Assembly: GCA_964644075.1 (NCBI GenBank)
Contig: CAZXUQ010000003.1
Location: 38,166-78,165, forward strand
From: an uncultured Candidatus Peribacteria bacterium
Lineage (GTDB): Bacteria > Patescibacteriota > Gracilibacteria > BD1-5 > UBA2023
Length of the DNA stretch: 40,000 nt
Direction: 5' to 3'
Shown here: piece by piece, positions 11,894 through 32,704 of the stretch
Layout: the number at the start of each line of letters is the position of its first letter
How positions within the stretch are numbered: position 1 is the stretch's first letter
The notes under the pieces: model-generated
Told to the model about the DNA's origin: nothing
What the model saw: only the letters and a program-made list of their open reading frames with translations
Databases searched by the model: none
Program-made: the position numbers and the translations under genes

Positions 11894-12496
11894 ATGCCAA
11901 AAAAATCCAAAAAACAGATTGCTGATTTTCTCATCCCGACGATCATCGATAAGGTCGGAGGACAGGAGCGCGCCTATGATATCTACTCTCGCCTTCTCGA
12001 GGATCGTGTGATCTTCCTCGGCGATGCTATCGATAGTGCTGTCGCAAATACTGTGATCGCACAGCTTCTCTATCTCGAGAAAGTTGATCCAAAAGCTCCG
12101 ATCACACTCTACGTGAACTCTCCAGGAGGTCATGTCACAGCAGGTCTCGCGATCTATGATACGATGCAGTCGATCAAGCCTGATGTCATCACTGTTGCGG
12201 TCGGACTCGCAGCGAGTATGGGGTCGATCATCCTCTGTGGTGGAGCAAAGGGAAAACGCTATGCTCTCCCTCATGCTGAGATCATGATCCATCAGCCTCT
12301 CGGAGGGATGGAGGGTCAGGCTATCGATATCAAGATCGCTGCCGATCATATCATCCGAACCTGAGAAGTCCTCTATGGTATCCTCGCGAAACACTCATGA
12401 CAAAAAATCGATAAAGTCCGAAAAGACTGTGATCGTGACAACTATATGACCGCAGAAGAAGCTCTCGAATATGGTCTTATCGATAAGATACTCTAA
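11894..12496 (+). CDS. clpP: ATP-dependent Clp protease proteolytic subunit
   Basis: Motifs seen: [34 protein letters not shown] (catalytic Ser), MIHQPLGG (His). The gene has 2 in-frame TGA codons and TAA at 12494-12496. The start ATG at 11894 was chosen by homology. Confidence 0.93.
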
Positions 12497-12497
12497 T

Positions 12498-13169
12498 ATG
12501 AAAAAGATTATTTTTTTCTGTTTTTTCTTTCTGCTTCCGTCATTTTCTCATGCTATCGGACTCATGAAGCCTGAGGCATGTGGATTTGCTGATGGTATCC
12601 ATCGAAAAGAGCTCTATATCTACTGGCCAGGAGAGTATCCACAGGTCGATGAGTTTCTCAAATATAGAGGAAAACTCTACTATTTCATCCATAAGTTTCC
12701 CTCAGCCCTCTCCCTCTCTCGCTATCAGGACGCAGGAAATAGTCCCTATAGTAAATATGGATTTATCAGGAATACATGAGCCTATTTTGTGACTTTCGAC
12801 TGTGCACGATCAAAAGTAGAATTTTCTCCGACGATCCGATCGACAGCATGAGATGCATATGGGAAATTTTACTGGCTCGATCGTCGCTACCTCTCTTACT
12901 CATTCACCCGACTCGAGAAAAGAAATGCCTGCACCGAATGACCAGATAAACTTATCGCTCTTCCTGACTTTAGCTCTCTCCTCATAGAGAAACAGTCTGG
13001 ATATCCGAACTCGACAGAGGATGTCTGCTATGCACGTGGTCCGTACAAATTTCTCGGCGATGGAAAGGTCCAGTTCGATGTCGAAAAATACGATCCATCC
13101 ACTGGTGAATCCTGGTTTTCTCGATATCAGTACCAGCTCGATACAAGCAAACTCAAAAAAATACGCTAA
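12498..13169 (+). CDS. Secreted hypothetical protein (223 aa)
   Basis: ATG 12498 gives the signal-peptide-like MKKIIFFCFFFLLPSFSHA. The frame was read through 3 TGA codons to TAA at 13167-13169. Confidence 0.6.
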
Positions 13170-13310
13170 AGAAATATGGAAAACGGCGAACTTCTTTGTT
13201 ATAAAAATTTTCTCTCGATCATTTACAAATGAGTAAACTCACTTCGATAAAATTTTTCTGCCTCGAATTTCTTGTTTTTATATATTTCTGACATTTTCTT
13301 CCCCGTTTCT
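13170..13310 (+). repeat. Copy 1 of a roughly 140-nt conserved intergenic element (second copy at 31056-31203)
   Basis: Hand alignment with 31056-31203 gives roughly three-quarters identity. Shared blocks are GAAAT..GGAAAA, CGAAnTTCTTTGT, AGTAAACTC, CTCGAnnTTCTTGTTTTT and TTCCCC, and both copies end at an ATG. Confidence 0.7.
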
Positions 13311-14090
13311 ATGAAAAAATACCTCTTCCTCATATGCTGTCTCCTTCCACTTTTCTCATATGCATGAGAAGACGATGGATTTATTTCGTATAGACGACCA
13401 CTCGTCCCATGAGTCTCTCTCGTCCAGACAGATGACACTACGAGCATCCTCTACAGGAGAAAAGTCATCAAAACATACCAAAATAAAGAATTTGCCACTG
13501 AGCTCCTCCCTCATGGACCAAATGAAGATCCAGACTGCTATAACTCTCTCGTAAAAAATACTCCATCAACTCGAGCAAAGAATATCATCGGAAAAGAATA
13601 TCTGAGATCGTGTCTCATCCTGAAATCAGACCTTTTCCGAGGAAAGTATATCCTTTTCTATGCTCCATCGATCGAGGGGAACCGCGTCTCTATATACGAT
13701 ATCAAAGCAAAGAAGTTTTACCCTTTTATCATAAACACAGCCCTCTCTGTTTCACTCGCTTCAGATCGTTCACTCGTATTTCTCTCGAGCAATCGCCAGT
13801 CACCCTGTGAGCGCTCAGTTATATCATTTAGAAATGGTGCTACAAAAAAACTCTATGATGACTGTCGGCTCATGAACTCTGCGTTTCCGAGTATCTCGAT
13901 ACAAAAATTTCAAATCAGAGAGGGTTCAGTCGAGATCTCCTACTTTCCCTATACGACCGTAGGACTCGATACAATCCTCGATACAGTTCATACAGAAAAA
14001 ATCACACTCCCACTTCCCTCCCTCACTCCTCCTGTCGTTCTCCCGAGACCACAGGCGATGACGTGACTTCTCATACCTCCTCTACGATAA
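13311..14090 (+). CDS. Secreted hypothetical protein (259 aa)
   Basis: ATG 13311 gives the signal-peptide-like MKKYLFLICCLLPLFSYA. I read the frame codon by codon through 3 TGA codons to TAA at 14088-14090. It joins track ORF 13872-14066. Confidence 0.6.
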
Positions 14091-14092
14091 CT

Positions 14093-15256
14093 ATGACTCC
14101 AAGCGCTATCCACAACCTCCTCACGAAGTGAGTTTCTCGTGTCATCGACCGAGATCACCTCGAAAAACGACTTCTCGCATGAGAAAAACTCGTCGTAAAA
14201 TTCGGGATCGATCCATCAGGAACTATCGTCCATATCGGACATATGGTTCCTATACTTAAGCTCAAAGCGTTCCAAGAGCTCGGACACAAAGTCGTCCTCC
14301 TGATCGGAGATGCGACCGCACAGGTCGGAGATGCCAGTGACAAGGATGCAGAGCGTCCGATGCTTGCTCGTGCCGAGACAGAGAAAAATGCGAAACTTTT
14401 CCTCTCGAAATTTGCTCGTGTCCTCGACCTCGAAAAGATTGAGATCTATTACAATAGTGAGTGACTTGATCAGGTAAACTTTGCCTCTGTCTGAGAACTC
14501 GCCAAAAATTTCTCTGTCGCAGAGATGCTCGATCGGGATAATTTCTCGAAGCGATATAAGTCCTGAGTCCGTATATCTCTCCAGGAGTTCCTCTACCCGA
14601 TCATGCAGGGATATGACTCTGTCGCGATCGCAAAAAAATACGGAAGCTGTGATGTCGAGCTCGGAGGCAATGATCAGTATTTCAATCTCCTTGCTGGACG
14701 TACCCTCATGGATGCACATGGACTCCCGAAGCAAGATATCATGACGTTTGACCTCCTCGTCGGATCAGATGGAAAAAAAATGTCGAAGACCTCACCCAAT
14801 ACTGTCGCGATCGATGAGGCTCCCCAGAGTATGTATCAGAAACTTATCAATGTGAAGGATGATCTCATCGTTCCCTATTTCGAACTCGCGACGGATATGA
14901 CGCTCGATGAAGTAGCAATCATACGTGATCGCCTCGAAAAATGAGAACACCCGAACACTCTTAAAAATGAACTCGCCCAGCGTATCATCACGATGTATCA
15001 TGGGAAACCGTATGATCCGAGTGATGCTTCGACGATCGAAGTACAGAGCATCAGTGTAGGAGAAATCAATATTTCTGATCTCCTTAAAGAGCTTGGATTT
15101 TGTGCGACTTCAGGTGATGTACGAAATGCTCTCTCCTGAAAATCAGTGCGTATCGATAGTGTCGTTATCGAGGACCCGAAATACCTCGTGACGATCACAC
15201 CTCTATGAGTCCTCGTCGAGATGGGGAAGAAAAAGGCAAAAAGAGTAGTTACTTAA
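14093..15256 (+). CDS. tyrS: Tyrosyl-tRNA synthetase
   Basis: The HIGH region is GIDPSGTIVHIGHMV and the KMSKS motif is KMSKT, with a C-terminal S4-like domain. Track ORFs 14243 and 14603 are in one frame. The gene has 7 in-frame TGA codons and TAA at 15254-15256. Confidence 0.92.
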
Positions 15257-18222: not shown

Positions 18223-21200
18223 ATGTCATACAAAAATATATACTTTCGTCTCACAGCAGCTCTAGCGCTTCTCACATTTGTCTCGAATACGCTCAGTCCG
18301 ATCGTACTCACGAGTTCAGCGGTGGGCAATGTCTTTTATGTGGATTCTGTCTCCTGAGATGACAATAACTCTGGTACTGCAGATACTGCAGCATGGGCAT
18401 CCGTCTCGATGGTAAATGCCTCTATGGCAAGTGGGACGATACTCCCTGGTGATACGGTATATTTCCGTTGTGGAGACTCATGGTGAAGTGAGGATCTCAC
18501 TATCACGACGAATGGTATTACATTTGATCGATTTCAAAATGGTCTCGTCTGTGGAACTGGTACGCGTCCTGTAATTCGTAGTATCAGTGCCAATAGTATG
18601 TCAAATACGACGGTAAATGGACTTCAAATCAATGCGAGTATGTCATGAAGTGCCATCGATTTCACGAACTCAAGTAATGTCACCCTCTATGACAACGCTA
18701 TTTCCAATAGCTCAGGTTCATGTCTCTCTCTCGTCACAGGAAGTGGTATCACTCTCGATAGTAATGATTTTTCTCTCTGTAGTTATGCACTCAATGCTAT
18801 CGATATCGGTGGTTCTATCTCAAACAATACGTTTTCTGGTATGACTGCAGACGCTCTCCAGATACTATCAAGCCAATCTCTGAGTGTGAATAATAATACC
18901 TTTTCTTATCTCCAAAAATGAGCGATCGTCTTTGGTCAGGCTACGGTAGTATCACAAAATATCATATCAAATGTATGTCAGTGAACAGGTACAGGATGTA
19001 GCGCTATCCGGAATGAAGAATTTTCTCCTGCCAATACCTCATACCTCTCAGCTCGTGTGAGTGAAAATATCATCCAAAATGTGGGAAGTGGTATCACGAA
19101 TGGGAACTATGGTATTTCTGCTCGCAGTATCCGAGATCTCGAGATCGCAAACAATACTGTCAATAATGCTGAAGAATCACTCCATCTCGAGGATACCAAT
19201 AGTTTCAATATCCATAATAACACTTTGGTCATGCCACGAGCACGAGTGGTTCAAGTTATCCAAAATACCCCTGGAACAGTCGGAACGAATACTTTTCAGT
19301 CAAATACTATCCTCGGGAAAAACCCAGACTATCCATACATCGAAATGCGCGATGAGACAGTAGGTGGCACGATGGGAAGTTTCCTGAGCTTTAGCAGCAC
19401 GGATTTTTTCCCACTATTTAAACCAAATACTTCCTATATCCGAGAGGTAAAATACGGATGAGAGACGAGAGAATACGGAAAGGCAGAATTTTCTACACTT
19501 GATCCCACTGCAACCCAGTTCTCATATTTTGGCTACAAACCCTACTCGACTACAGGAAATCTCGTATGAGGAAACCAGGTGTGAAATGGAAACTTTTTAA
19601 CAAATACGGGTGGATGGACAGTATGAGCTGAGTCTGGTCCTACCCCTAATCTTTTGTATAATCCTTGAGGAAGTTATTCTGGTTGATCAGCTACAGTGAG
19701 TCCTGCTTGAGGATCACCTGATCGCATTTGGATTACAAATAATACAACTATTCCACTTACGGTATGACGTAATTACCAGATAACTGGATATGTGAAATCT
19801 GCATCAGGAAATATTAATCTCAGAGCATTTTTGCACTCTGCCAGTGATAAGAATATTGTATACTCTGATCGTATAGCTGAGACGTATGCAAGTGCTTCGG
19901 GAAGAACCTTCTCATTCTATCTCCAAGCTATGACATGAGCATCAGATGCTAACATCACTATCGAAACATCCAATCCCGATGTCGCCTATGAGATCGATGA
20001 AGTGAGCGTACAACGTGTAAATCCCCTCCTGAGAAATAATACAGCAAACGAGATACATATCATGCCTAACACTACTGCGAGCTCCCTCTCTCAGCCATGT
20101 CCTGGATGAGTGTGTAGTGAGTATGTAGATGAACTCAACATACCGATCTCATGGAATATTGCTATCCCTGCCTATCGTACTAAGATTGCATTTTGGAATA
20201 ATGATACAGCCAACATGCTGACACCACCAACGTGTACAGTCCTTCCTGATAATGGATCACTTCCTGCATGACAACCAGTAAATGTTACCTGGACAGCTAC
20301 TGACTCTCTCTCACAAATACTACACTACACTACCTATACAGGGTCAGTTACCTTGCCAGTTGCTTCTACATGAGTAGTGACATTTATCCCTTCAAATAGT
20401 GGATGAGCTATCGTGACGATATCTCTCGATACTCAAAATGATATATGACCAAAAACATGTAGTGCGAATGTCACTACCAACAACACTCCCCCACAGATTT
20501 TTACGAGCATATTTGCTGGTACAGAAGATGATGCACAAATCTCTGGTACGCTCAGTGGTGTCGATGTGAATCCTGGCGATTCTGTTATTTTTGAAATCAT
20601 TACACCTCCTTCCGTCAGTCAGTGAACACTCAATCTCGTAGATAGTACGACATGACAGACAGACTTTTATCCAAATCCTGACTTCTGTGGAACGGCGACA
20701 TTTGATTTTCGTGCGCGCGATCAATGGTTTAACTATGCTGATCCGATAACACAGTCGATCACTGTGGATTGTGTGAATGATACACCTTTTCTCAATAGTC
20801 CTACGAAATCTGCATCAGGCTATACAGCTATGGCTTCTCTTATAGATCTTATCGAGTGACCAAGTGGTGATTTCGATGATCCAGATGCTATATACCAGTG
20901 ACAAATCTATACAGTCAATTTTACCCAGCCAACAAATGGATCCGTGGTTCTCTGAGGTTCCGCTACGCAACTCCAATATACTTCCAATCTCGGATTTAGT
21001 GGTACTGATAGCTTTCAATACAGTATCACAGATCAGAGTGGAGCTACGACAGCCACTGGTACAATCAATGTTCTCGTGACGCGCTATAATAATCCACCAG
21101 TAGCTTACGGTACTTGAATTACGCTTCTTGAAGATTGATTTTTTTCATGATTTCTTTCTGGATCTGATCTTGATGGAGATCCTCTTACTTTTAGCCTCCT

Positions 21201-22863
21201 TAGTTGACCGACATTTGGTACTGCTAGTGTGTCTCCGTCAGGAAGTTTTACTTATACACCGAACCCTAACTTCAACTGAACGCTTGATGGTTTTGGGTTT
21301 CGAGTGAGTGATAATCAATGAGGAACTACATGAGGTTATATTAGTATAGACGTGACATCTGTTCCTGATGCTCCAGTAGCAGTAGCAGATAGTTTTACTC
21401 TCCCACAGGATACGATGACTTCCCTCCCCGTTATGGGAAATGATTCAGATGTAGATAGTAGTACGCTCACTCTGACATGATATACACAACCGACTCATGG
21501 TACTCTCGTCGTGAATGGCACATCCTTTGATTATACGCCAAACAGTGGATATGTAGGTTCTGACAGTTTCACATACCGTCTTGAAGATGATACGAGTCTC
21601 CTCTCATCACCAGTAACGGTCACTCTCACAGTCACTTCGACGAACTCTGCTCCGACGACTTCTGATATGAGCGTGTCTGTCAATGAAGACGGCGTGCTGA
21701 ATTCCACTCTTTCTGGAAGTGATCCAGATATGGATACTCTCACATACTCCATCAATACATTCCCAACACACGGGACACTTACACCTTCTTCTACTGGAGC
21801 ATTTCGCTATACACCAAACGCGAACTACTACGGAACGGATAGTTTTACATACCATGCGAGTGATGCTGCCCTGAGTTCTACCATCTCTACAGTCGCTATC
21901 ACGATCAATCCTGTAAACGATGCCCCAGTAGGAACTCCAGCAAGCTATAGTGTCACTCCGAATACGAACTCGAGTAGTGGAAATATTTTTACTGGGGTAG
22001 TTGTAGGGACTGATATCGATAGTGGTATCCTGACATTTACTGCGAGTATGATGCCAACACATGGTACACTGACTCTCGCCTCAAGTTGAGCCTTTACATA
22101 TACTCCAGCGCTCTGATATATAGGCTCTGATAGTTTCGCATTTATCGTCAGTGATGGCTCTCTCCAGAGTAGCGCTACGATAGTATCTTTTACTATCTGA
22201 TCAGCTCCAGTAGCCTCTCCTGGTCCATCTACTGGTCCTGGCGGAGGTGGTGGTGGCTGAGGCTGAGGCTGAGTATCTCTCCCCAATCCTGTAGTCACTC
22301 CGACGACAACTACAGGTACAGTGCAGCTCCCAGTGATACCAAAAAAACCAGATACAAAAACAGGTGCAACTACCAACACAGAAGATCCAGAGTTTAACTC
22401 TGCTCCAGAAATTCAAGCGCCACAGTTTGTCCTCTATGATCCTACGGGACTCCTTTCTCAGCTTATGCTGACAAATAGAGTACTTACTGCGAGCGGACTT
22501 TCCCCTATCTTCATCTCTCCTATAATCCAGATTACCCTCGCGCAAAAGGTATTTGGCGAAATACCAACTCTGATGTTAGATGACTTCGATGGTCCAGCGA
22601 TCCTCCGCAGTATGCTTCAGATGTTTGTCATGGAAGCAGATAACCAATGAGATGTGCTTGAGACATATTCGAATGCTATCGATTATGTAGGATGATTTGA
22701 TTTTAGTGACAGTAAGCGCATGAAAAATACCCAAAACTATATTTTGCGTATCCTCGAAAGAAATAGAAAACACTACGAACAGATCGTACAAAGAGATATT
22801 TTTTCTCGATTTGAAGGCGAACTCAATAGTGCCTCAGAAGAAATCCAAACAACGGATTTCTAG
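18223..22863 (+). CDS. Giant secreted/surface protein (1546 aa): signal/anchor, parallel beta-helix repeats, CBM4_9-like module, six cadherin-like (VCBS/tandem-95-type) repeats, poly-Gly/Thr linker and a C-terminal domain
   Basis: Frame 1 is open from ATG 18223 to TAG 22861-22863, checked line by line, and is interrupted only by 40 TGA codons. It joins track ORFs 19057, 21511 and 22321. The N-terminus is MSYKNIYFRLTAALALLTFVSNTL. N-rich beta-helix-like repeats occupy about 18300-19400. An NGNF...GGW...Y.I.GYVK...IDEVSV module occupies about 19560-20010. Confidence 0.85.
20479..22200 (+). repeat. Six tandem protein-level repeats of about 90-100 aa inside the giant CDS
   Basis: The recurring pattern is (N)DAP/NNPP...ED...GSD.D.D.LT.S....P.HGT......G.F.YTPN..Y.G.DSF.Y...D. 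The repeats are diverged at DNA level. Confidence 0.7.
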
Positions 22864-30348: not shown

Positions 30349-31050
30349 ATGAATATTCTCATTATCGAAGATGATGTATTTCTCGCGAAGCATATCGCTC
30401 GAGTATTCGAAAAAAAAGATGCCACACAGAAAGTAACCCTCCTGGATCGACCAGAAAACTTCTTGCGCGAATTTGCGAAAATCCGTACCTACGATATCGT
30501 TGTGACAGATTTGTGTTTTCCTGGACTCTCTCGTTTTTCGGGATTTGATGTGATAGAGATGATCCGCTCAGAGAAATACGATATTCCGATTATCGTTATT
30601 AGCGGACTTTCCGATATCAGTGATCTTGAGCGAGCATTTCTCTTCGGAGCCAATGATTATATTATCAAACCATTTCGCCTCCTCGAGCTCGATGTGCGTG
30701 CGACGAACTGGTACAAGCAATACTACCTCAAACACTGTGAGACACTGGGTGATATTTCTATCTATCATAGTCTCGAGTATCATATCAAGATCCATGAATT
30801 TTACTACAACTCACTCCATATCCCTCTTCCCAAAAAGTGAAAACATCTCCTTTTGTTATTTTTCACTCAGAGTGAGACGCTCCTCCATGAGTCTACTCTA
30901 GAAGAAAAACTCTATGGTGATCATGAGAGAATAGAGACCAGAAACATACGAGTAAATATTGCTCGCCTGAGAAAAATACTTTCTCGCTATGGTATAGATC
31001 ACTGGATCAGAAATGTGGCAGGGGAAGGATATATTTTCTCAGCAAAATAA
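30349..31050 (+). CDS. OmpR/PhoB-family response regulator (receiver plus winged-helix)
   Basis: Track ORFs 30349 and 30853 are in one frame, joined by one TGA. Receiver residues: IIEDD, VVTDLCFPG, IISGLSD, YIIKPF. The C-terminus is NIRVNIARLRKIL...VAGEGYIF. Confidence 0.88.
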
Positions 31051-31055
31051 TCTAC

Positions 31056-31203
31056 GGAAATGCGGAAAAACTGCGAATTTCTTTGTCAGAAAAAATTATT
31101 TCTCAGTCACTTACGTATTAGTAAACTCCTTTCGAAAAATTTTTTCTTCCTCGATCTTCTTGTTTTTGCACATTTCCAGTGTTCCCCTATTTTTTCTTAA
31201 ATG
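31056..31203 (+). repeat. Copy 2 of the roughly 140-nt conserved intergenic element (copy 1 at 13170-13310)
   Basis: See copy 1. This copy sits between the convergent response-regulator genes. Its 3' end overlaps the stop codon of the minus-strand regulator (31197-31199). Confidence 0.7.
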
Positions 31204-31859
31204 AGCATATATCCAGTTTTATAGAGAGTTTTTATCTTTACCTGATCTCAGAGCTTCTTTTTGATTTTGGATATGGTAGCATTGAGAGTATTGTCAGAAA
31301 AAAGCTCGAGTCGTATTTCTCACCATACGTATCCGATGAGCTCCTCTCGTTTTATGGTTTCTCACTTTTTCATGAGGAGGAGTTCGATGACGAGACTTTC
31401 TTTATGAGGCATAGGCACGTAGACCCCATCGACGTAGCACTCTTTTTTATCGGGATTATAGGAGATATTTTTATAGACGATAGCGAGAGTCTCTTTTCGT
31501 CATATAGGCCTCCTCAGGAGGGCTCGTATGCGCGCGAGAAACTCGTCTGGAACGAGTGGCTTGATCATATAGTCATCAGCTCAGATGTCGAGTCAGTGAG
31601 TGATATTGTCAGTGTCGCCATATCAGGATATGATCATGATAGGAGACTGGATATCTTTCTCTCGGAGCCACGCTATGATGTCCATACCACTCCCATCTCG
31701 CAGGGATATATCTATGACATAGAGGTCAGTATTGGTCGGAGGGTTAGCAAAAAATTTCTCACACGAATGATATATCACTACACTATATCCGTAGTTTTCG
31801 AGTTTTTTCCCGATTTTATTGGAAAGCAAGATTTCGTCGTCTATGATGACTATTTTCAT
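31197..31859 (-). CDS. OmpR/PhoB-family response regulator (orphan, 220 aa)
   Basis: The track ORF 31623-31859 continues through 8 TGA codons to TAA at 31197-31199. Receiver residues: IIDDE, YVIDISLRDGSG, MIISGYGD (Gly encoded by TGA), YMIKPL. The C-terminus is ...LIGYVWG......NTLNATISKIKKKL....TLYKTGYML. Confidence 0.85.
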
Positions 31860-31951: not shown

Positions 31952-32704
31952 CTACATCTTACAGACAGTATGTGTCATGTCAGCATGGAGTCCAGCAGCA
32001 CATGGTGTGCAAGACGGAGAACCTACCGTACTTACGCTATTTCCTCTACATGATTTACAGCTCCCACCACTACTAGAGTACGTACCTGCTCGACAGTCGA
32101 TGCAACTTTTTTTCTCTCTATCGGAGGTCTTTCCTGCAGGACATACACTACATATTGGAGATCCTTCGACAGATGTGATAGTTCCAGTCTTGCACGTTCG
32201 GCAAGATTTCCCATCAGCAGATGCGCTACCAGGACTACAGAGACGACACTCTCTTCTGGAAAGAGTAGACTCATATCAGGCACTACAACTCAGACAGCTT
32301 ACGGCACCAGCACTTGATGAGTACTGTCCTATACCACAGCTACGACAGCTTTTCCCATCTGATCAGTATGTTCCTGCTGGACAGGCGACACATGCAGTTC
32401 CGAGAGTATTTGGTTTCATGCCAGGAGCACATTTCTGACAGCTAACAGCTCACTCAGATGAATACTCTCACTCACTACATGGTGCGCATGACTTTCCTGA
32501 TGCGCTATAGGTTCCAGGCTTGCAGGCAGTACATGTGTTGTCTCTCCCTGGGTACATACCAGGAGCACATTCTATTGTTTTTTTCGTATATTTTGCCTCT
32601 CATGATACTACTATAGCCTGAATAGCATATGCCTGTGTCATGATGAGAGCGATGATCGATATGAGCGCACTGACGATCAGCCCGAGAGAAAAATATTTTT
32701 TCAT
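31952..32704 (-). CDS. Secreted cysteine-rich repeat protein (250 aa) with about 12 tandem CxxC-xx-G units, resembling the ephrin-receptor-like/GCC2_GCC3 repeat
   Basis: ATG 32704-32702 gives the signal peptide MKKYFSLGLIVSALISIIALIMTQAYA. Units of 15-17 aa follow: CTACKPGTYSASGKS, CAPCSEGEYSSEGAVS, CQKCAPGMKPNTLGTA, CVACPAGTYGSDGKS and so on. There are 5 in-frame TGA codons and TAG at 31952-31954. The frame was checked line by line. Confidence 0.8.

What the first reader, a model, noticed from the sequence alone, without database searches (positions are those of the whole stretch)
13170..13310. A roughly 140-nt intergenic element occurs twice in the window (13170-13310 and 31056-31203)
The two intergenic stretches align over their whole length at roughly 75 percent identity by eye. 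Both start right after a plus-strand stop codon and both end at an ATG.

The shared blocks are GAAAT..GGAAAA, CGAAnTTCTTTGT, [T/G]AGTAAACTC, CTCGAnnTTCTTGTTTTT and TTCCCC. Each copy carries an internal direct repeat, CGA[A/T]nTTCTT(T)GT, spaced 77 nt apart.

The flanking coding sequences are unrelated, so this is not a gene duplication. The candidates are a shared promoter or 5' UTR, a regulator-binding module, a small RNA, or a miniature mobile element.
Basis: seen in the sequence. Interest (0 to 1): 0.65.

Follow-up and report, generated by a model that had tools for sequence, protein, structure and literature searches.

The report
Mobile conserved hairpin repeat of Gracilibacteria
The two look-alike intergenic stretches are copies of an undescribed ~123-base hairpin-forming repeat that has jumped into gene ends in Gracilibacteria (bacteria that read TGA as glycine), and selection then keeps it almost unchanged, so it is a small mobile element that apparently does something for its host.

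Summary
The repeat is real: 106/138 aligned bases are identical (77%), z=17 against shuffles. Each copy is a ~123-nt imperfect palindrome (13170-13289; 31056-31177) with a short T/C-rich tail.

It is not a promoter or an OmpR site. Copy 2 lies between two convergent regulator genes, and its 'ATG' is not a gene start.

Pattern scans found about 60 more full-length copies in many Gracilibacteria MAGs and metagenomes. They sit next to unrelated housekeeping genes, and none was found in viral, phage, plasmid or E. coli collections or in Rfam.

The hairpin shows strong covariation: 41 pairs, 95% paired, 22 pairs with double changes, 0/500 shuffles as good.

Both window copies are lineage-specific insertions. 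The 95-98% relative has them. More distant relatives have a 10-13-nt spacer, overlapping gene ends or a small ordinary terminator instead.

Copies abut TAA/TAG and are co-oriented with the upstream gene (34 vs 3). Resident copies are strongly constrained: 99% identical against 86% at four-fold sites.

Best reading: a new MITE/ERIC-like mobile hairpin family retained as a gene-3'-end module.

Still unexplained: the better-folding strand is antisense to the neighbouring genes, and the transposase and exact function are unknown.

The parts
13170..13289 (+). Copy 1, hairpin core (imperfect palindrome). Listed in the family's '+' orientation, co-oriented with the upstream gene.
   Evidence: HMM/CM match (118.5 bits). 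Inverted arms 13170-13194/13265-13289. Folds as a ~120-nt hairpin.
13290..13304 (+). Copy 1, T/C-rich 3' tail (GACATTTTCTTCCCC), inserted together with the hairpin.
   Evidence: Filled-versus-empty comparison with L072/L073. Similar tails occur in related copies.
31056..31177 (+). Copy 2, hairpin core.
   Evidence: HMM/CM match (144 bits). Outer arms 31056-31071/31162-31177. Fold energy -27.8 kcal/mol on the plus strand and -37.2 on the minus strand.
31178..31187 (+). Copy 2, 3' tail (AGTGTTCCCC), followed by TA.
   Evidence: The tail motif ...GTGTTTCCC|TA recurs in L043, L044, L060 and L042.
13167..13169 (+). TAA stop of the upstream gene, directly abutting copy 1.
31048..31050 (+). TAA stop of the plus-strand response regulator, 5 nt before copy 2.
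31197..31199 (-). Stop codon of the convergent minus-strand response regulator, about 19 nt after the hairpin of copy 2.
12471..13169 (+). Upstream gene of copy 1. It encodes a secreted 223-aa protein with no Pfam family.
   Evidence: Synteny in L073-L075.
13311..14090 (+). Downstream gene of copy 1. It encodes a 259-aa protein with a signal peptide. TyrRS (14093-15256) follows 2 nt later.
30349..31050 (+). OmpR-family response regulator upstream of copy 2.
   Evidence: Pfam PF00072 + PF00486.
31197..31859 (-). Second OmpR-family response regulator, convergent on copy 2.
   Evidence: Pfam PF00072 + PF00486. The same gene call appears in L062.
13187..13199 (+). Copy 1, 5'-arm CGAACTTCTTTGT (palindromic core GAAnTTC). 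Its partner is 13264-13275.
   Evidence: GAA/TTC pairs in the consensus fold.
31074..31086 (+). Copy 2, 5'-arm CGAATTTCTTTGT. Its partner is 31152-31163.
31065..31071 (+). Copy 2, invariant A-tract GAAAAAC, pairing with GTTTTTG at 31162-31168. In copy 1 the equivalents are 13178-13184 and 13274-13280.
   Evidence: Near-invariant columns in A1/A2. Coordinates.
31110..31125 (+). Copy 2, apical stem-loop CTTAC-GTATTA-GTAAA. In copy 1 it is 13222-13237. The stem covaries across the family.
   Evidence: Pairs 61-65/73-77: CG 20 / UA 10, and AU 27 / CG 4 / GC 2.

Best explanation
The two stretches are copies of an undescribed family of small non-autonomous mobile elements found in Gracilibacteria, which use genetic code 25.

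Anatomy: a ~123-nt imperfect palindrome forming a ~55-bp interrupted hairpin, followed by an 8-30-nt T/C-rich tail.

Shown here:
- The family has roughly 5-15 copies per genome.
- It is absent from many relatives.
- Both window copies are insertions that arose after the split from 80% and 56-60% protein-identity relatives.

Inferred: insertion goes into (N)TA(A/G) sites. In a genome whose intergenic spacers are ~10 nt, the harmless sites of that kind are mostly stop codons. That is why copies abut TAA/TAG, and a subset keeps a duplicated flank.

Inferred mechanism: because the element sits directly after a co-oriented gene, it is transcribed as the 3' end or intercistronic part of that mRNA. 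There its hairpin, often followed by a U-rich tail, acts as a 3'-end module for termination/attenuation or for protection and processing of the transcript. At the regulator/regulator junction it occupies the place where relatives carry a small ordinary bidirectional terminator.

Shown: resident copies are under strong purifying selection on both sequence and pairing, so the host, or a sequence-specific partner, uses them.

Not shown: which strand or molecule (RNA or single-stranded DNA) is the functional form, which enzyme moves the element, and what exactly it does.
For: Family and structure:
- 42 genome loci and 19 metagenome loci were found with two independent arm patterns. Nearly all are full-length matches in Gracilibacteria.
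- Covariation: 41 pairs, 94.8% paired, 22 pairs with double changes, 0/500 shuffles as good, and <=54% paired when partners are slid.

Mobility:
- Copy 2 is present in the 98% relative L062. It is absent at the same convergent RR/RR junction in L063-L066 (genes overlap) and in L068-L070 (small terminator hairpin).
- Copy 1 is present in the 95% relative L071. The 80% relative reads ...CGATAA|TAGGATCGTATTT|ATG, and the 54% relative has a 10-nt spacer.
- There are no diverged copies in 69 kb from relatives.
- Flank repeats abutting the junction: >=6 nt in 11 copies vs 5.6 expected (P<0.005), plus L035 (12+ nt) and L023 (10 nt).
- A truncated copy (L022), an internally deleted copy (L046) and copies carrying insertions exist.

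Context:
- The left neighbour is co-oriented in 34 copies vs 3 (P=1e-7). Co-directional gene pairs are 15 sense vs 1 antisense.
- An ORF stop lies 1-9 nt before the element in about two thirds of copies.
- Neighbours are unrelated housekeeping genes and tRNAs.
- A U-rich tract follows the plus-strand hairpin in 22/51 copies vs 10/51 on the other strand.

Constraint:
- Window versus closest relative: element-bearing intergenic regions 284/287 identical against 584/676 at four-fold sites (P=1e-11).
- Syntenic copies in other species are 76-100% identical where four-fold sites are 37-62% identical.

Literature: these features match the definition and behaviour of bacterial MITEs, ERIC and SPRITE (PMC3184786; PMC3049150).
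Against: - No transposase or recombinase was found in the window, and no longer element with the same ends was seen in any locus.
- Target duplications are detectable in only a minority of copies and vary in length (3-18 nt). The cleanest recent insertion, copy 1, shows none.
- The outermost stem is the least conserved part and covaries. That is not what transposase-bound terminal repeats of a classical MITE do.
- The hairpin folds better on the strand antisense to the flanking genes: consensus -27.8 vs -12.9 kcal/mol, G.U 104 vs A.C 19 cells, and 35/38 copies more stable on that strand. A purely sense-mRNA function does not predict this.
- The stem is AT-rich, and the terminator scan calls no canonical intrinsic terminator.
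- Copy 1 sits inside what looks like an operon just upstream of TyrRS, where an efficient terminator would be harmful.
- Near-complete sequence conservation, loops included, is more than a simple structural hairpin needs.
Confidence: 0.6

Rival explanations
1. It is a hairpin element mobilised and/or used as single-stranded DNA, like a REPIN with its RAYT, an IS200/IS605-derived palindromic element, or an attC-like site. The selected fold is that of the minus DNA strand, recognised by an HUH/Y1 or tyrosine recombinase. On this view the orientation bias reflects strand-specific insertion or selection rather than an mRNA function.
For: - The fold is strand-specific with G.T tolerance on the strand antisense to the genes.
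- The whole element is one long hairpin with covarying stems.
- The recent insertion of copy 1 has no obvious target duplication and lies immediately 3' of a fixed short sequence, TAA.
- No promoter is conserved for a minus-strand RNA.
- Orientation is strongly biased.
Against: - No Y1/RAYT or integrase gene was seen next to any copy or in the window, though whole genomes could not be searched.
- Several copies do have flanking duplications of 6-18 nt, which IS200/IS605-type transposition does not make.
- The attC consensus boxes RYYYAAC/GTTRRRY are not met (the element has GAAAAAC/GTTTTTG). The flanking ORFs do not move with the element, and there is no cassette array.
- GC skew gives only a weak link between orientation and replication strand (30/45).
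- Selection for mobility cannot explain the constraint on fixed resident copies.
Confidence: 0.2
2. It is a multi-copy small RNA gene family transcribed from the minus strand, the better-folding strand. The RNA would carry conserved purine-rich, Shine-Dalgarno-like unpaired motifs (GAGGAAG, AAAGGAG) and act in trans, for example as a protein or ribosome sponge. New copies would arise by duplication.
For: - The consensus structure is stronger on the minus strand, with more covarying pairs and classic G.U/A-U/G-C series.
- Sequence is conserved throughout, loops and bulges included, and resident copies are under purifying selection.
- Copy number is low and conserved across species.
Against: - No -35/-10 is conserved at a fixed distance upstream of the minus-strand 5' end. 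In many copies only 20-27 nt separate it from the next gene's start codon.
- No U-tract follows the minus-strand hairpin.
- No promoter-like site lies in or beside the window copies.
- The element abuts stop codons and is consistently antisense to both neighbours, which is unusual for free-standing sRNA genes.
- Insertions are clean and some carry flank duplications.
- No Rfam family matches.
Confidence: 0.12
3. It is an ordinary host-encoded bidirectional transcription terminator or insulator that looks repeated only because terminators in this lineage share a common design. On this view it is not mobile.
For: - It lies at gene 3' ends and between convergent genes.
- It has an A-tract/hairpin/T-tract layout on both strands.
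- Relatives have a small bidirectional terminator at the same RR/RR junction.
Against: - Copies at unrelated loci in different species are 91-93% identical, while their flanks are not alignable.
- Relatives use short, unrelated hairpins or no spacer at all.
- Most convergent gene pairs in the window have no spacer.
- There are only about 5-15 copies per genome.
- The terminator scan finds no canonical site in the elements.
- Copy 1 was inserted inside an operon-like junction.
Confidence: 0.08
4. One reading: a shared promoter or 5' UTR, or a binding module for the two adjacent OmpR-type regulators.
For: - Copy 2 lies between two OmpR-family genes.
- Copy 1 does precede a gene start.
- The repeated GAAnTTC motifs could in principle be protein sites.
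Against: - Copy 2 has no downstream co-oriented gene.
- No promoter consensus is present.
- Across 58 copies the neighbours are unrelated housekeeping genes.
- Orthologous regulator pairs in five other lineages lack the element.
- The 77-78-nt spacing of the repeats is simply the two arms of a hairpin.
Confidence: 0.03

Closest known systems
ERIC (enterobacterial repetitive intergenic consensus; ~127-bp imperfect palindrome, classed as a MITE)
   Same: - Same size class and a whole-element imperfect palindrome.
- Low to moderate copy number.
- Located in transcribed intergenic regions close to gene ends.
- High sequence conservation across species.
- Larger variants with insertions at fixed internal sites.
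- TA at the flanks.
- Orientation-dependent effects on transcripts are reported for ERIC (PMC3184786; PMC3049150).
   Different: - No sequence similarity: blastn against 5,426 E. coli genomes finds nothing.
- A different phylum (Patescibacteria/CPR, genetic code 25).
- A far stronger orientation bias (92%).
- An extra asymmetric 3' tail.
- Variable-length flank repeats rather than a clean TA duplication.
- The better-folding strand is antisense to the neighbouring genes.
Correia elements (CREE/NEMIS) of Neisseria and RUP/BOX of Streptococcus (bacterial MITEs)
   Same: - Non-autonomous and about 100-160 bp.
- Fold into long stem-loops.
- Insert at TA-containing targets.
- Co-transcribed with neighbouring genes.
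- Show presence/absence between related genomes (PMC3184786).
   Different: - Those families have hundreds of copies, conserved terminal inverted repeats and defined TA duplications.
- Here copy number is low, and the termini covary instead of being conserved.
- Here resident copies are under strong purifying selection.
- IHF sites and RNase III cleavage were not tested.
[quoted passage not shown]
   Same: An interspersed repeat consisting of a long stem followed by a uridine-rich tract. It sits close to CDS 3' ends and between convergent genes, and is proposed to be co-opted as a terminator (PMC3049150).
   Different: - The stem here is about three times longer, AT-rich and interrupted.
- Only about 43% of copies have a U-rich tract after the sense-strand hairpin.
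- There is no sequence relationship.
REPINs / REP elements mobilised by RAYT transposases
   Same: Long hairpin repeats in intergenic regions at gene ends. Compensatory evolution preserves the hairpin, and the folding is strand-specific and plausibly that of single-stranded DNA. This comparison rests on my own knowledge of Bertels & Rainey 2011, which I did not read here.
   Different: - REP units are GC-rich ~25-35-nt palindromes, usually in hundreds of copies, and are linked to a RAYT gene.
- No RAYT was found here, though whole genomes were not searchable.
- The element is AT-rich and is not a doublet of a shorter palindrome.
Integron attC sites
   Same: An imperfect palindrome of 57-141 bp directly after the stop codon of a co-oriented ORF. 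The functional fold is that of the strand antisense to the ORF. The inner boundaries carry AAC...GTT.
   Different: - The consensus boxes are not met.
- The ORF does not move with the element.
- There is no cassette array or integrase.
- Copies are dispersed among housekeeping genes.

Membership tests
Bacterial MITE (non-autonomous transposable element) | Small (<~400 bp), non-coding, present in multiple dispersed copies | tested here: met
   The unit is ~123 nt plus a tail. There are 64 copies in the 550 kb of sequence held, spread over many genomes and unrelated loci.
Bacterial MITE (non-autonomous transposable element) | Presence/absence at orthologous sites (is or was mobile) | tested here: met
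   Both window copies have filled and empty orthologous sites.
Bacterial MITE (non-autonomous transposable element) | Terminal inverted repeats | tested here: inconclusive
   The ends are inverted repeats (for example GGAAATGCGGAAAAAC / GTTTTTGCACATTTCC). However, the outermost 8-10 bp vary and covary rather than being conserved, and an asymmetric tail follows the 3' arm.
Bacterial MITE (non-autonomous transposable element) | Target-site duplication | tested here: inconclusive
   Junction-abutting flank repeats are enriched: >=6 nt in 11 copies vs 5.6 expected, and >=10 nt in 3 vs 0.1. They are variable in length, absent in most copies, and absent at the recent copy-1 insertion.
Bacterial MITE (non-autonomous transposable element) | Cognate autonomous IS with matching ends | not testable with these tools
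   None was seen in the window or the loci. Whole genomes could not be scanned.
ERIC | Sequence homology to the 127-bp enterobacterial consensus | tested here: not met
   blastn in distant mode against all complete E. coli genomes gives no match.
Integron attC site | R''/R' boxes RYYYAAC ... GTTRRRY | tested here: not met
   The element has GAAAAAC ... GTTTTTG, and a further 8-10 bp of paired stem lies outside these boxes.
Integron attC site | Moves together with its ORF as a cassette, in arrays next to an integrase | tested here: not met
   Empty sites keep both flanking ORFs. Copies lie 18 kb apart among housekeeping genes, and the window has no integrase.
REPIN / REP-RAYT | Associated RAYT (Y1 HUH transposase) gene flanked by the repeats | not testable with these tools
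   No such gene lies next to any of about 60 copies. Full genomes are not available here.
REPIN / REP-RAYT | Hairpin preserved by compensatory change, with strand-specific fold | tested here: met
Intrinsic (Rho-independent) terminator | Short G+C-rich stem immediately followed by a U-tract | tested here: not met
   The consensus scan finds no such site conserved in the two copies. The stem is ~55 bp and AT-rich. A U-rich tract follows the sense-strand hairpin in only 22/51 copies.
Any Rfam RNA family | Match to a curated covariance model | tested here: not met
   The whole window gives 0 hits at gathering thresholds. Both copies give only noise at E<=10.
Promoter / OmpR-box regulatory module | Lies upstream of the regulated genes, with -35/-10 or tandem ~10-bp-spaced direct repeats, and is linked to the regulon | tested here: not met

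The most novel reading that the evidence does not exclude
The element may not be just another MITE. It could be a domesticated, sequence-specifically recognised structured nucleic acid whose functional form is the strand antisense to the neighbouring genes. That form would be either a single-stranded-DNA hairpin handled by a still unknown recombinase or replication/repair factor of CPR bacteria, or a family of antisense-encoded RNAs with Shine-Dalgarno-like loops. On this reading its spread to stop codons and its near-complete sequence constraint reflect a host function not described for any known repeat family.
Probability: 0.2. Interest if true: 0.75.

Novelty: new member of a known kind. 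Interest (0 to 1): 0.5.

Why it matters
Gracilibacteria and other CPR bacteria have tiny, tightly packed genomes, and almost nothing is known about their non-coding elements, terminators or mobile DNA.

This family is easy to recognise and has clean insertion sites. It shows abundant covariation and unusually strong purifying selection on resident copies. That makes it a good handle on three questions:
- how transcripts end or are processed in these uncultured organisms;
- what mobilises small elements there;
- the long-standing ERIC-type puzzle of why some palindromic repeats are conserved far beyond what a selfish element needs.

Practically, the covariance model can annotate these elements. 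It can also flag assembly breaks and help with binning in code-25 MAGs.

Tried and rejected
- **Table-11 ORFs.** They were misleading. Recoding TGA raised long-ORF content from 8.9k to 31.6k aa, so all gene context was redone under code 25.
- **Third copy in the window.** None was found by nhmmer, blastn or the covariance model with filters off.
- **Known RNA families, tRNA/tmRNA, T-box upstream of TyrRS.** Nothing was found.
- **Sigma-70 promoters and canonical terminators in or beside the copies.** None is conserved.
- **Conserved promoter upstream of the minus-strand hairpin.** None was found.
- **Association with a gene family or with OmpR regulators.** Rejected by neighbour clustering.
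- **Outer stem as a pre-existing host terminator split by an insertion.** Rejected, because the same outer-stem types recur at many unrelated loci.
- **Phage or plasmid vehicle.** The first pattern has 0 viral hits, the looser pattern gives 4 chance hits inside coding sequence, and blastn finds nothing in phage or plasmid collections.
- **Replication-strand explanation of the orientation bias.** GC skew is only weakly associated and is confounded by gene orientation.
- **A longer autonomous element sharing the ends.** L022 and L003 are truncated copies and L046 is an internal deletion. No arm pair flanks an ORF.
- **Transposase in the window.** None was found.
- **Retroelement-like origin suggested by the variable-length flank repeats.** Considered, but there is no supporting evidence.
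Full report
**The observation**

- The stretches 13170-13311 and 31051-31203 align at 106/138 identical positions (77%). The score is 64, against 8.7 +/- 3.2 for 1000 dinucleotide-preserving shuffles, so z = 17.
- nhmmer and blastn find no other copy in the window. A covariance model run with filters off finds none either.
- Each copy also matches its own reverse complement (63-64% over ~120 nt, E about 1e-5). Each has nested inverted arms and folds into one long interrupted hairpin.
That core sits in both arms of the hairpin and pairs with itself.

**Gene context**

- The window is recoded. Reading TGA as sense raises the total length of ORFs of 150 aa or more from 8.9k to 31.6k aa.
- The code is 25 (TGA = Gly). 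A conserved G-E-G-Y motif is written GGGGAGTGATAT in a relative and GGGGAAGGATAT in the window. Related loci carry a tRNA with anticodon UCA.
- Under code 25, copy 1 lies between two plus-strand genes for secreted proteins (12471-13169 and 13311-14090). TyrRS follows 2 nt later.
- Copy 2 lies between two convergent OmpR-type response regulators, 30349-31050 (+) and 31197-31859 (-).
- Neither copy contains a sigma-70-like promoter or a conserved canonical terminator. Rfam has nothing, and the window has no tRNA.

**A lineage-wide family**

- A 20-base pattern from the 3' arm was scanned against one genome per GTDB species. It hit 42 loci where about one chance hit is expected. About 39 of them are in Gracilibacteria/Patescibacteria MAGs.
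- Nearly all match over the whole ~123-nt unit.
- An independent pattern from the 5' arm found 19 more loci in metagenomes. All are full-length elements except one internally deleted copy, L046.
- Only 2 of those 19 carry the first pattern exactly. Exact-pattern scans therefore see a minority of copies.
- In the roughly 370 kb of loci that were retrieved because they carry one copy, only two further copies turned up. That suggests roughly 5-15 copies per genome.
- The window matches other genomes only within the element, at up to 91-93% identity. The flanks are not alignable.
- Nothing similar exists in viral contigs, phage, plasmid or E. coli collections.
- I found no publication describing such an element in Gracilibacteria.

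**Structure**

- A 35-sequence alignment gives a consensus hairpin with abundant compensatory change.
- On the reverse-complement strand the consensus is much better: -27.8 vs -12.9 kcal/mol, 41 vs 29 pairs, and 22 vs 16 pairs with double changes.
- For that structure 94.8% of cells are paired. No shuffle out of 500 reaches any of the five measures. Sliding the partners by 1-3 columns drops pairing to 54% or less.
- Single-sequence folding favours the window's minus strand in 35 of 38 copies, with means of -36.7 vs -27.9 kcal/mol.
- Over 56 distinct copies aligned to the model, G.U outnumbers A.C by 104 to 19 cells. Without one dominant pair the count is 63 to 19.
- G.U exceeds A.C at 21 pairs against 6 the other way (P=0.006). 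The independently ascertained metagenome subset gives 25 to 2.
- The copies are related by descent, so these are not independent events. Even so, the asymmetry is consistent: the strand on which wobble is tolerated is the one antisense to the upstream gene.
- Some copies carry an extra 36-45-nt hairpin inserted at fixed internal points.

**Context across the family**

- Neighbours are unrelated housekeeping genes: RNase J, MurE, ThyA>Tmk, YbaB>cyclophilin, trigger factor, SecF, RuvC, GlyA/MnmA, NusA, HisRS. tRNA genes also occur.
- In about two thirds of copies a co-oriented ORF of 100 aa or more stops 1-9 nt before the element's left edge.
- Over 58 non-redundant copies the left neighbour is co-oriented in 34 and opposite in 3 (P=1e-7). 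The right neighbour is co-oriented in 19 and convergent in 7. Co-directional gene pairs are 15 sense to 1 antisense.
- This is far stronger than the ~61-63% strand bias reported for pneumococcal repeats, which merely mirror coding bias (PMC3049150).
- GC skew is only weakly linked to orientation (30/45).

**Mobility**

- Copy 2: orthologues of the regulator next to it keep the convergent RR/RR arrangement.
  - The 98% relative (L062) has the element.
  - The 56% and 60% relatives (L063-L066) have none. Only 28 nt separate the two conserved Gly-Tyr codons there, against ~177 nt in the window, and the two ORFs run into each other.
  - The 48-49% relatives (L068-L070) have a small classical bidirectional terminator (AAAAATAA-ACACCATTTTT-T-AAAAATGGTGT-TTATTTT).
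- Copy 1: the synteny glycosyltransferase / ClpP / 223-aa protein / 26x-aa protein / TyrRS is conserved.
  - The 95% relative (L071) has the element.
  - The 80% relative reads ...CGATAA|TAGGATCGTATTT|ATG.
  - The 54% relative has a 10-nt spacer.
  - The window reads ...CGCTAA|AGAAATATGG...ATATATTTCT GACATTTTCTTCCCC GTTTCT|ATG.
- Both copies are therefore lineage-specific gains of about 130 nt placed directly after a stop codon.
- The covariance model finds no diverged copies in 69 kb from the relatives.

**Junctions**

- The left junction is almost always (N)TA(A/G). That holds even where no ORF ends there.
- To the right of the hairpin there is an 8-30-nt T/C-rich tail. In copies with the 'ATGCG' outer stem it consists of one or two further ...ATTTCC / GTGTTTCCC motifs.
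- In a subset, a repeat of the left flank follows the tail:
  - L035: TTTTTTGGCTAG, about 18 nt if one indel is allowed.
  - L023: TATTTCTTAA.
  - L001: AAGTAAA.
  - L042: TCCTAA.
  - L002: TGTATA.
  - L005: GTAG.
  - L052: ATAG.
  - L044 and L060: TAA.
- Suffix repeats abutting the junction are enriched over swapped-flank controls. For 6 nt or more the count is 11 vs 5.6 (P<0.005). For 10 nt or more it is 3 vs 0.1, and one of those three is a tandem pair.
- This is partial support for target duplication at TAR-containing sites. The recent copy-1 insertion shows none.
- A preference for TA(A/G) would explain the stop-codon adjacency. Spacers in this genome are ~10 nt, so stop codons are the main harmless targets.

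**Constraint**

- Between the window and its closest relative, four-fold degenerate sites of five flanking genes are 584/676 (86.4%) identical. The two element-bearing intergenic regions are 284/287 (99.0%) identical (Fisher P=1e-11).
- The two window copies are only 77% alike, so conversion between them cannot explain this.
- At sites shared by several species, element identity is 76-100%. Four-fold sites there are 37-62% identical, which is essentially saturated, and adjacent spacers are 55-73% (ThyA-element-Tmk in 3 genomes, YbaB-element-PPIase in 5).
- Resident copies therefore evolve several-fold to more than ten-fold slower than neutral, loops included. Selection for transposability cannot act on a fixed copy.
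- So either the host or a sequence-specific partner uses them, or they are continually homogenised from other copies.

**Interpretation**

- The best-supported reading is a new family of small non-autonomous mobile elements of the MITE/ERIC kind. That kind is defined by small size, a whole-element palindrome, location at gene 3' ends, co-transcription and TA flanks (PMC3184786).
- The family inserts at stop codons and is then retained.
- In the prevailing orientation it must be transcribed with the upstream gene. A U-rich tract follows the sense-strand hairpin more often than the antisense one (22/51 vs 10/51, P=0.003). At the RR/RR junction it stands where relatives have a terminator.
- A role as a 3'-end hairpin module (termination/attenuation, or protection and processing of the mRNA) is the most economical mechanism.
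- That step is inferred, not shown, and it has weaknesses:
  - The stem is AT-rich.
  - Copy 1 sits inside an operon-like junction before TyrRS.
  - Conservation is stronger than a mere hairpin needs.
  - The better-folding strand is the antisense one.
- The strand asymmetry is the main unexplained fact. Three explanations remain open:
  - It reflects a single-stranded-DNA form, REPIN-, IS200/605- or attC-like in principle. The attC boxes and cassette behaviour were tested and not met.
  - It reflects an antisense RNA for which no promoter is visible.
  - It reflects selection to keep C/U-rich, anti-Shine-Dalgarno-like segments (CUCCUUU, CCUCG) unpaired in the sense RNA.
- No transposase was found in the window or beside any copy.

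**Verdict**

- The element is an undescribed member of a known kind. Two features are unusual: strong purifying selection on resident copies, and antisense-strand folding. Both deserve transcriptomic follow-up.

Noticed in passing
whole window (e.g. 13363-13365; compare 31019-31030 with L063:10672-10683): The genome uses genetic code 25 (TGA = glycine). Long-ORF content rises 3.5-fold when TGA is read as sense. A conserved G-E-G-Y motif is spelled with TGA in a relative and GGA in the window. Related loci carry a tRNA with anticodon UCA, which ARAGORN labels 'SeC'.
   Followed up: yes
L014:4227-4237, L030:338-348, L035:2302-2312, L052:1217-1330, L057:2345-2458, L068:6636-6790, L074:6910-6920: A second, unrelated inverted-repeat element (ends GTCATT[GC]CGAG ... 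CTCG[GC]AATGAC, ~110-180 nt) recurs in several Gracilibacteria loci, sometimes right next to the element studied here. It is absent from the window.
   Followed up: partly
L029:1491-1656, L032:6952-7115, L042:4532-4699, L060:681-849; L028:5450-5605: Some copies carry a nested extra hairpin. In most it is ~45 nt (cgcccc...ggggcg) between AATTTT and TCTTCCTCGA. In L028 it is 36 nt in the other arm. This recalls the enlarged ERIC variants.
   Followed up: no
L006:5-107 and 130-232: Two identical copies lie in direct tandem, 125 nt apart, at the very start of a contig. Many other copies also sit at contig ends, which suggests the repeat breaks short-read assemblies.
   Followed up: no
L063:10647-10768; L064:4133-4194: In relatives that lack the element, the two convergent response-regulator ORFs overlap tail-to-tail by 60-120 nt. 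Each has a ~20-aa C-terminal extension read from the other's antisense strand.
   Followed up: partly
L035:425-560 and flanks: This copy is flanked on both sides by the same ~18-nt sequence, TTTCGTTTTTT(T)GGCTAG. That is much longer than a usual target-site duplication.
   Followed up: partly
window 31126-31135 and 31146-31154 (copy 1: 13238-13247, 13258-13266): Conserved, mostly unpaired C/U-rich motifs on the plus strand (CUCCUUUCG, CUUCCUCGA) resemble the 3' end of 16S rRNA. On the minus strand they read as Shine-Dalgarno-like GAGGAAG and AAAGGAG.
   Followed up: no
window 31952-32704 (-): A secreted, cysteine-rich 250-aa protein matches eukaryote-type ephrin-receptor-like / TNFR-like / NCD3G cysteine repeats (Pfam E about 1e-15). 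That is unusual for a bacterium.
   Followed up: no
window 18223-22863 (+): A giant 1546-aa protein. By synteny with L071/L076 it carries Big_9/Cadherin-like repeats, so it is likely a surface adhesin of this presumed episymbiont.
   Followed up: no
window 31063 vs L062:5211: The only stem difference between the window and its 98% relative turns a U-A pair (relative) into a G.U wobble on the minus strand. On the plus strand the same change gives a C.A mismatch. This fits the family-wide strand asymmetry.
   Followed up: partly
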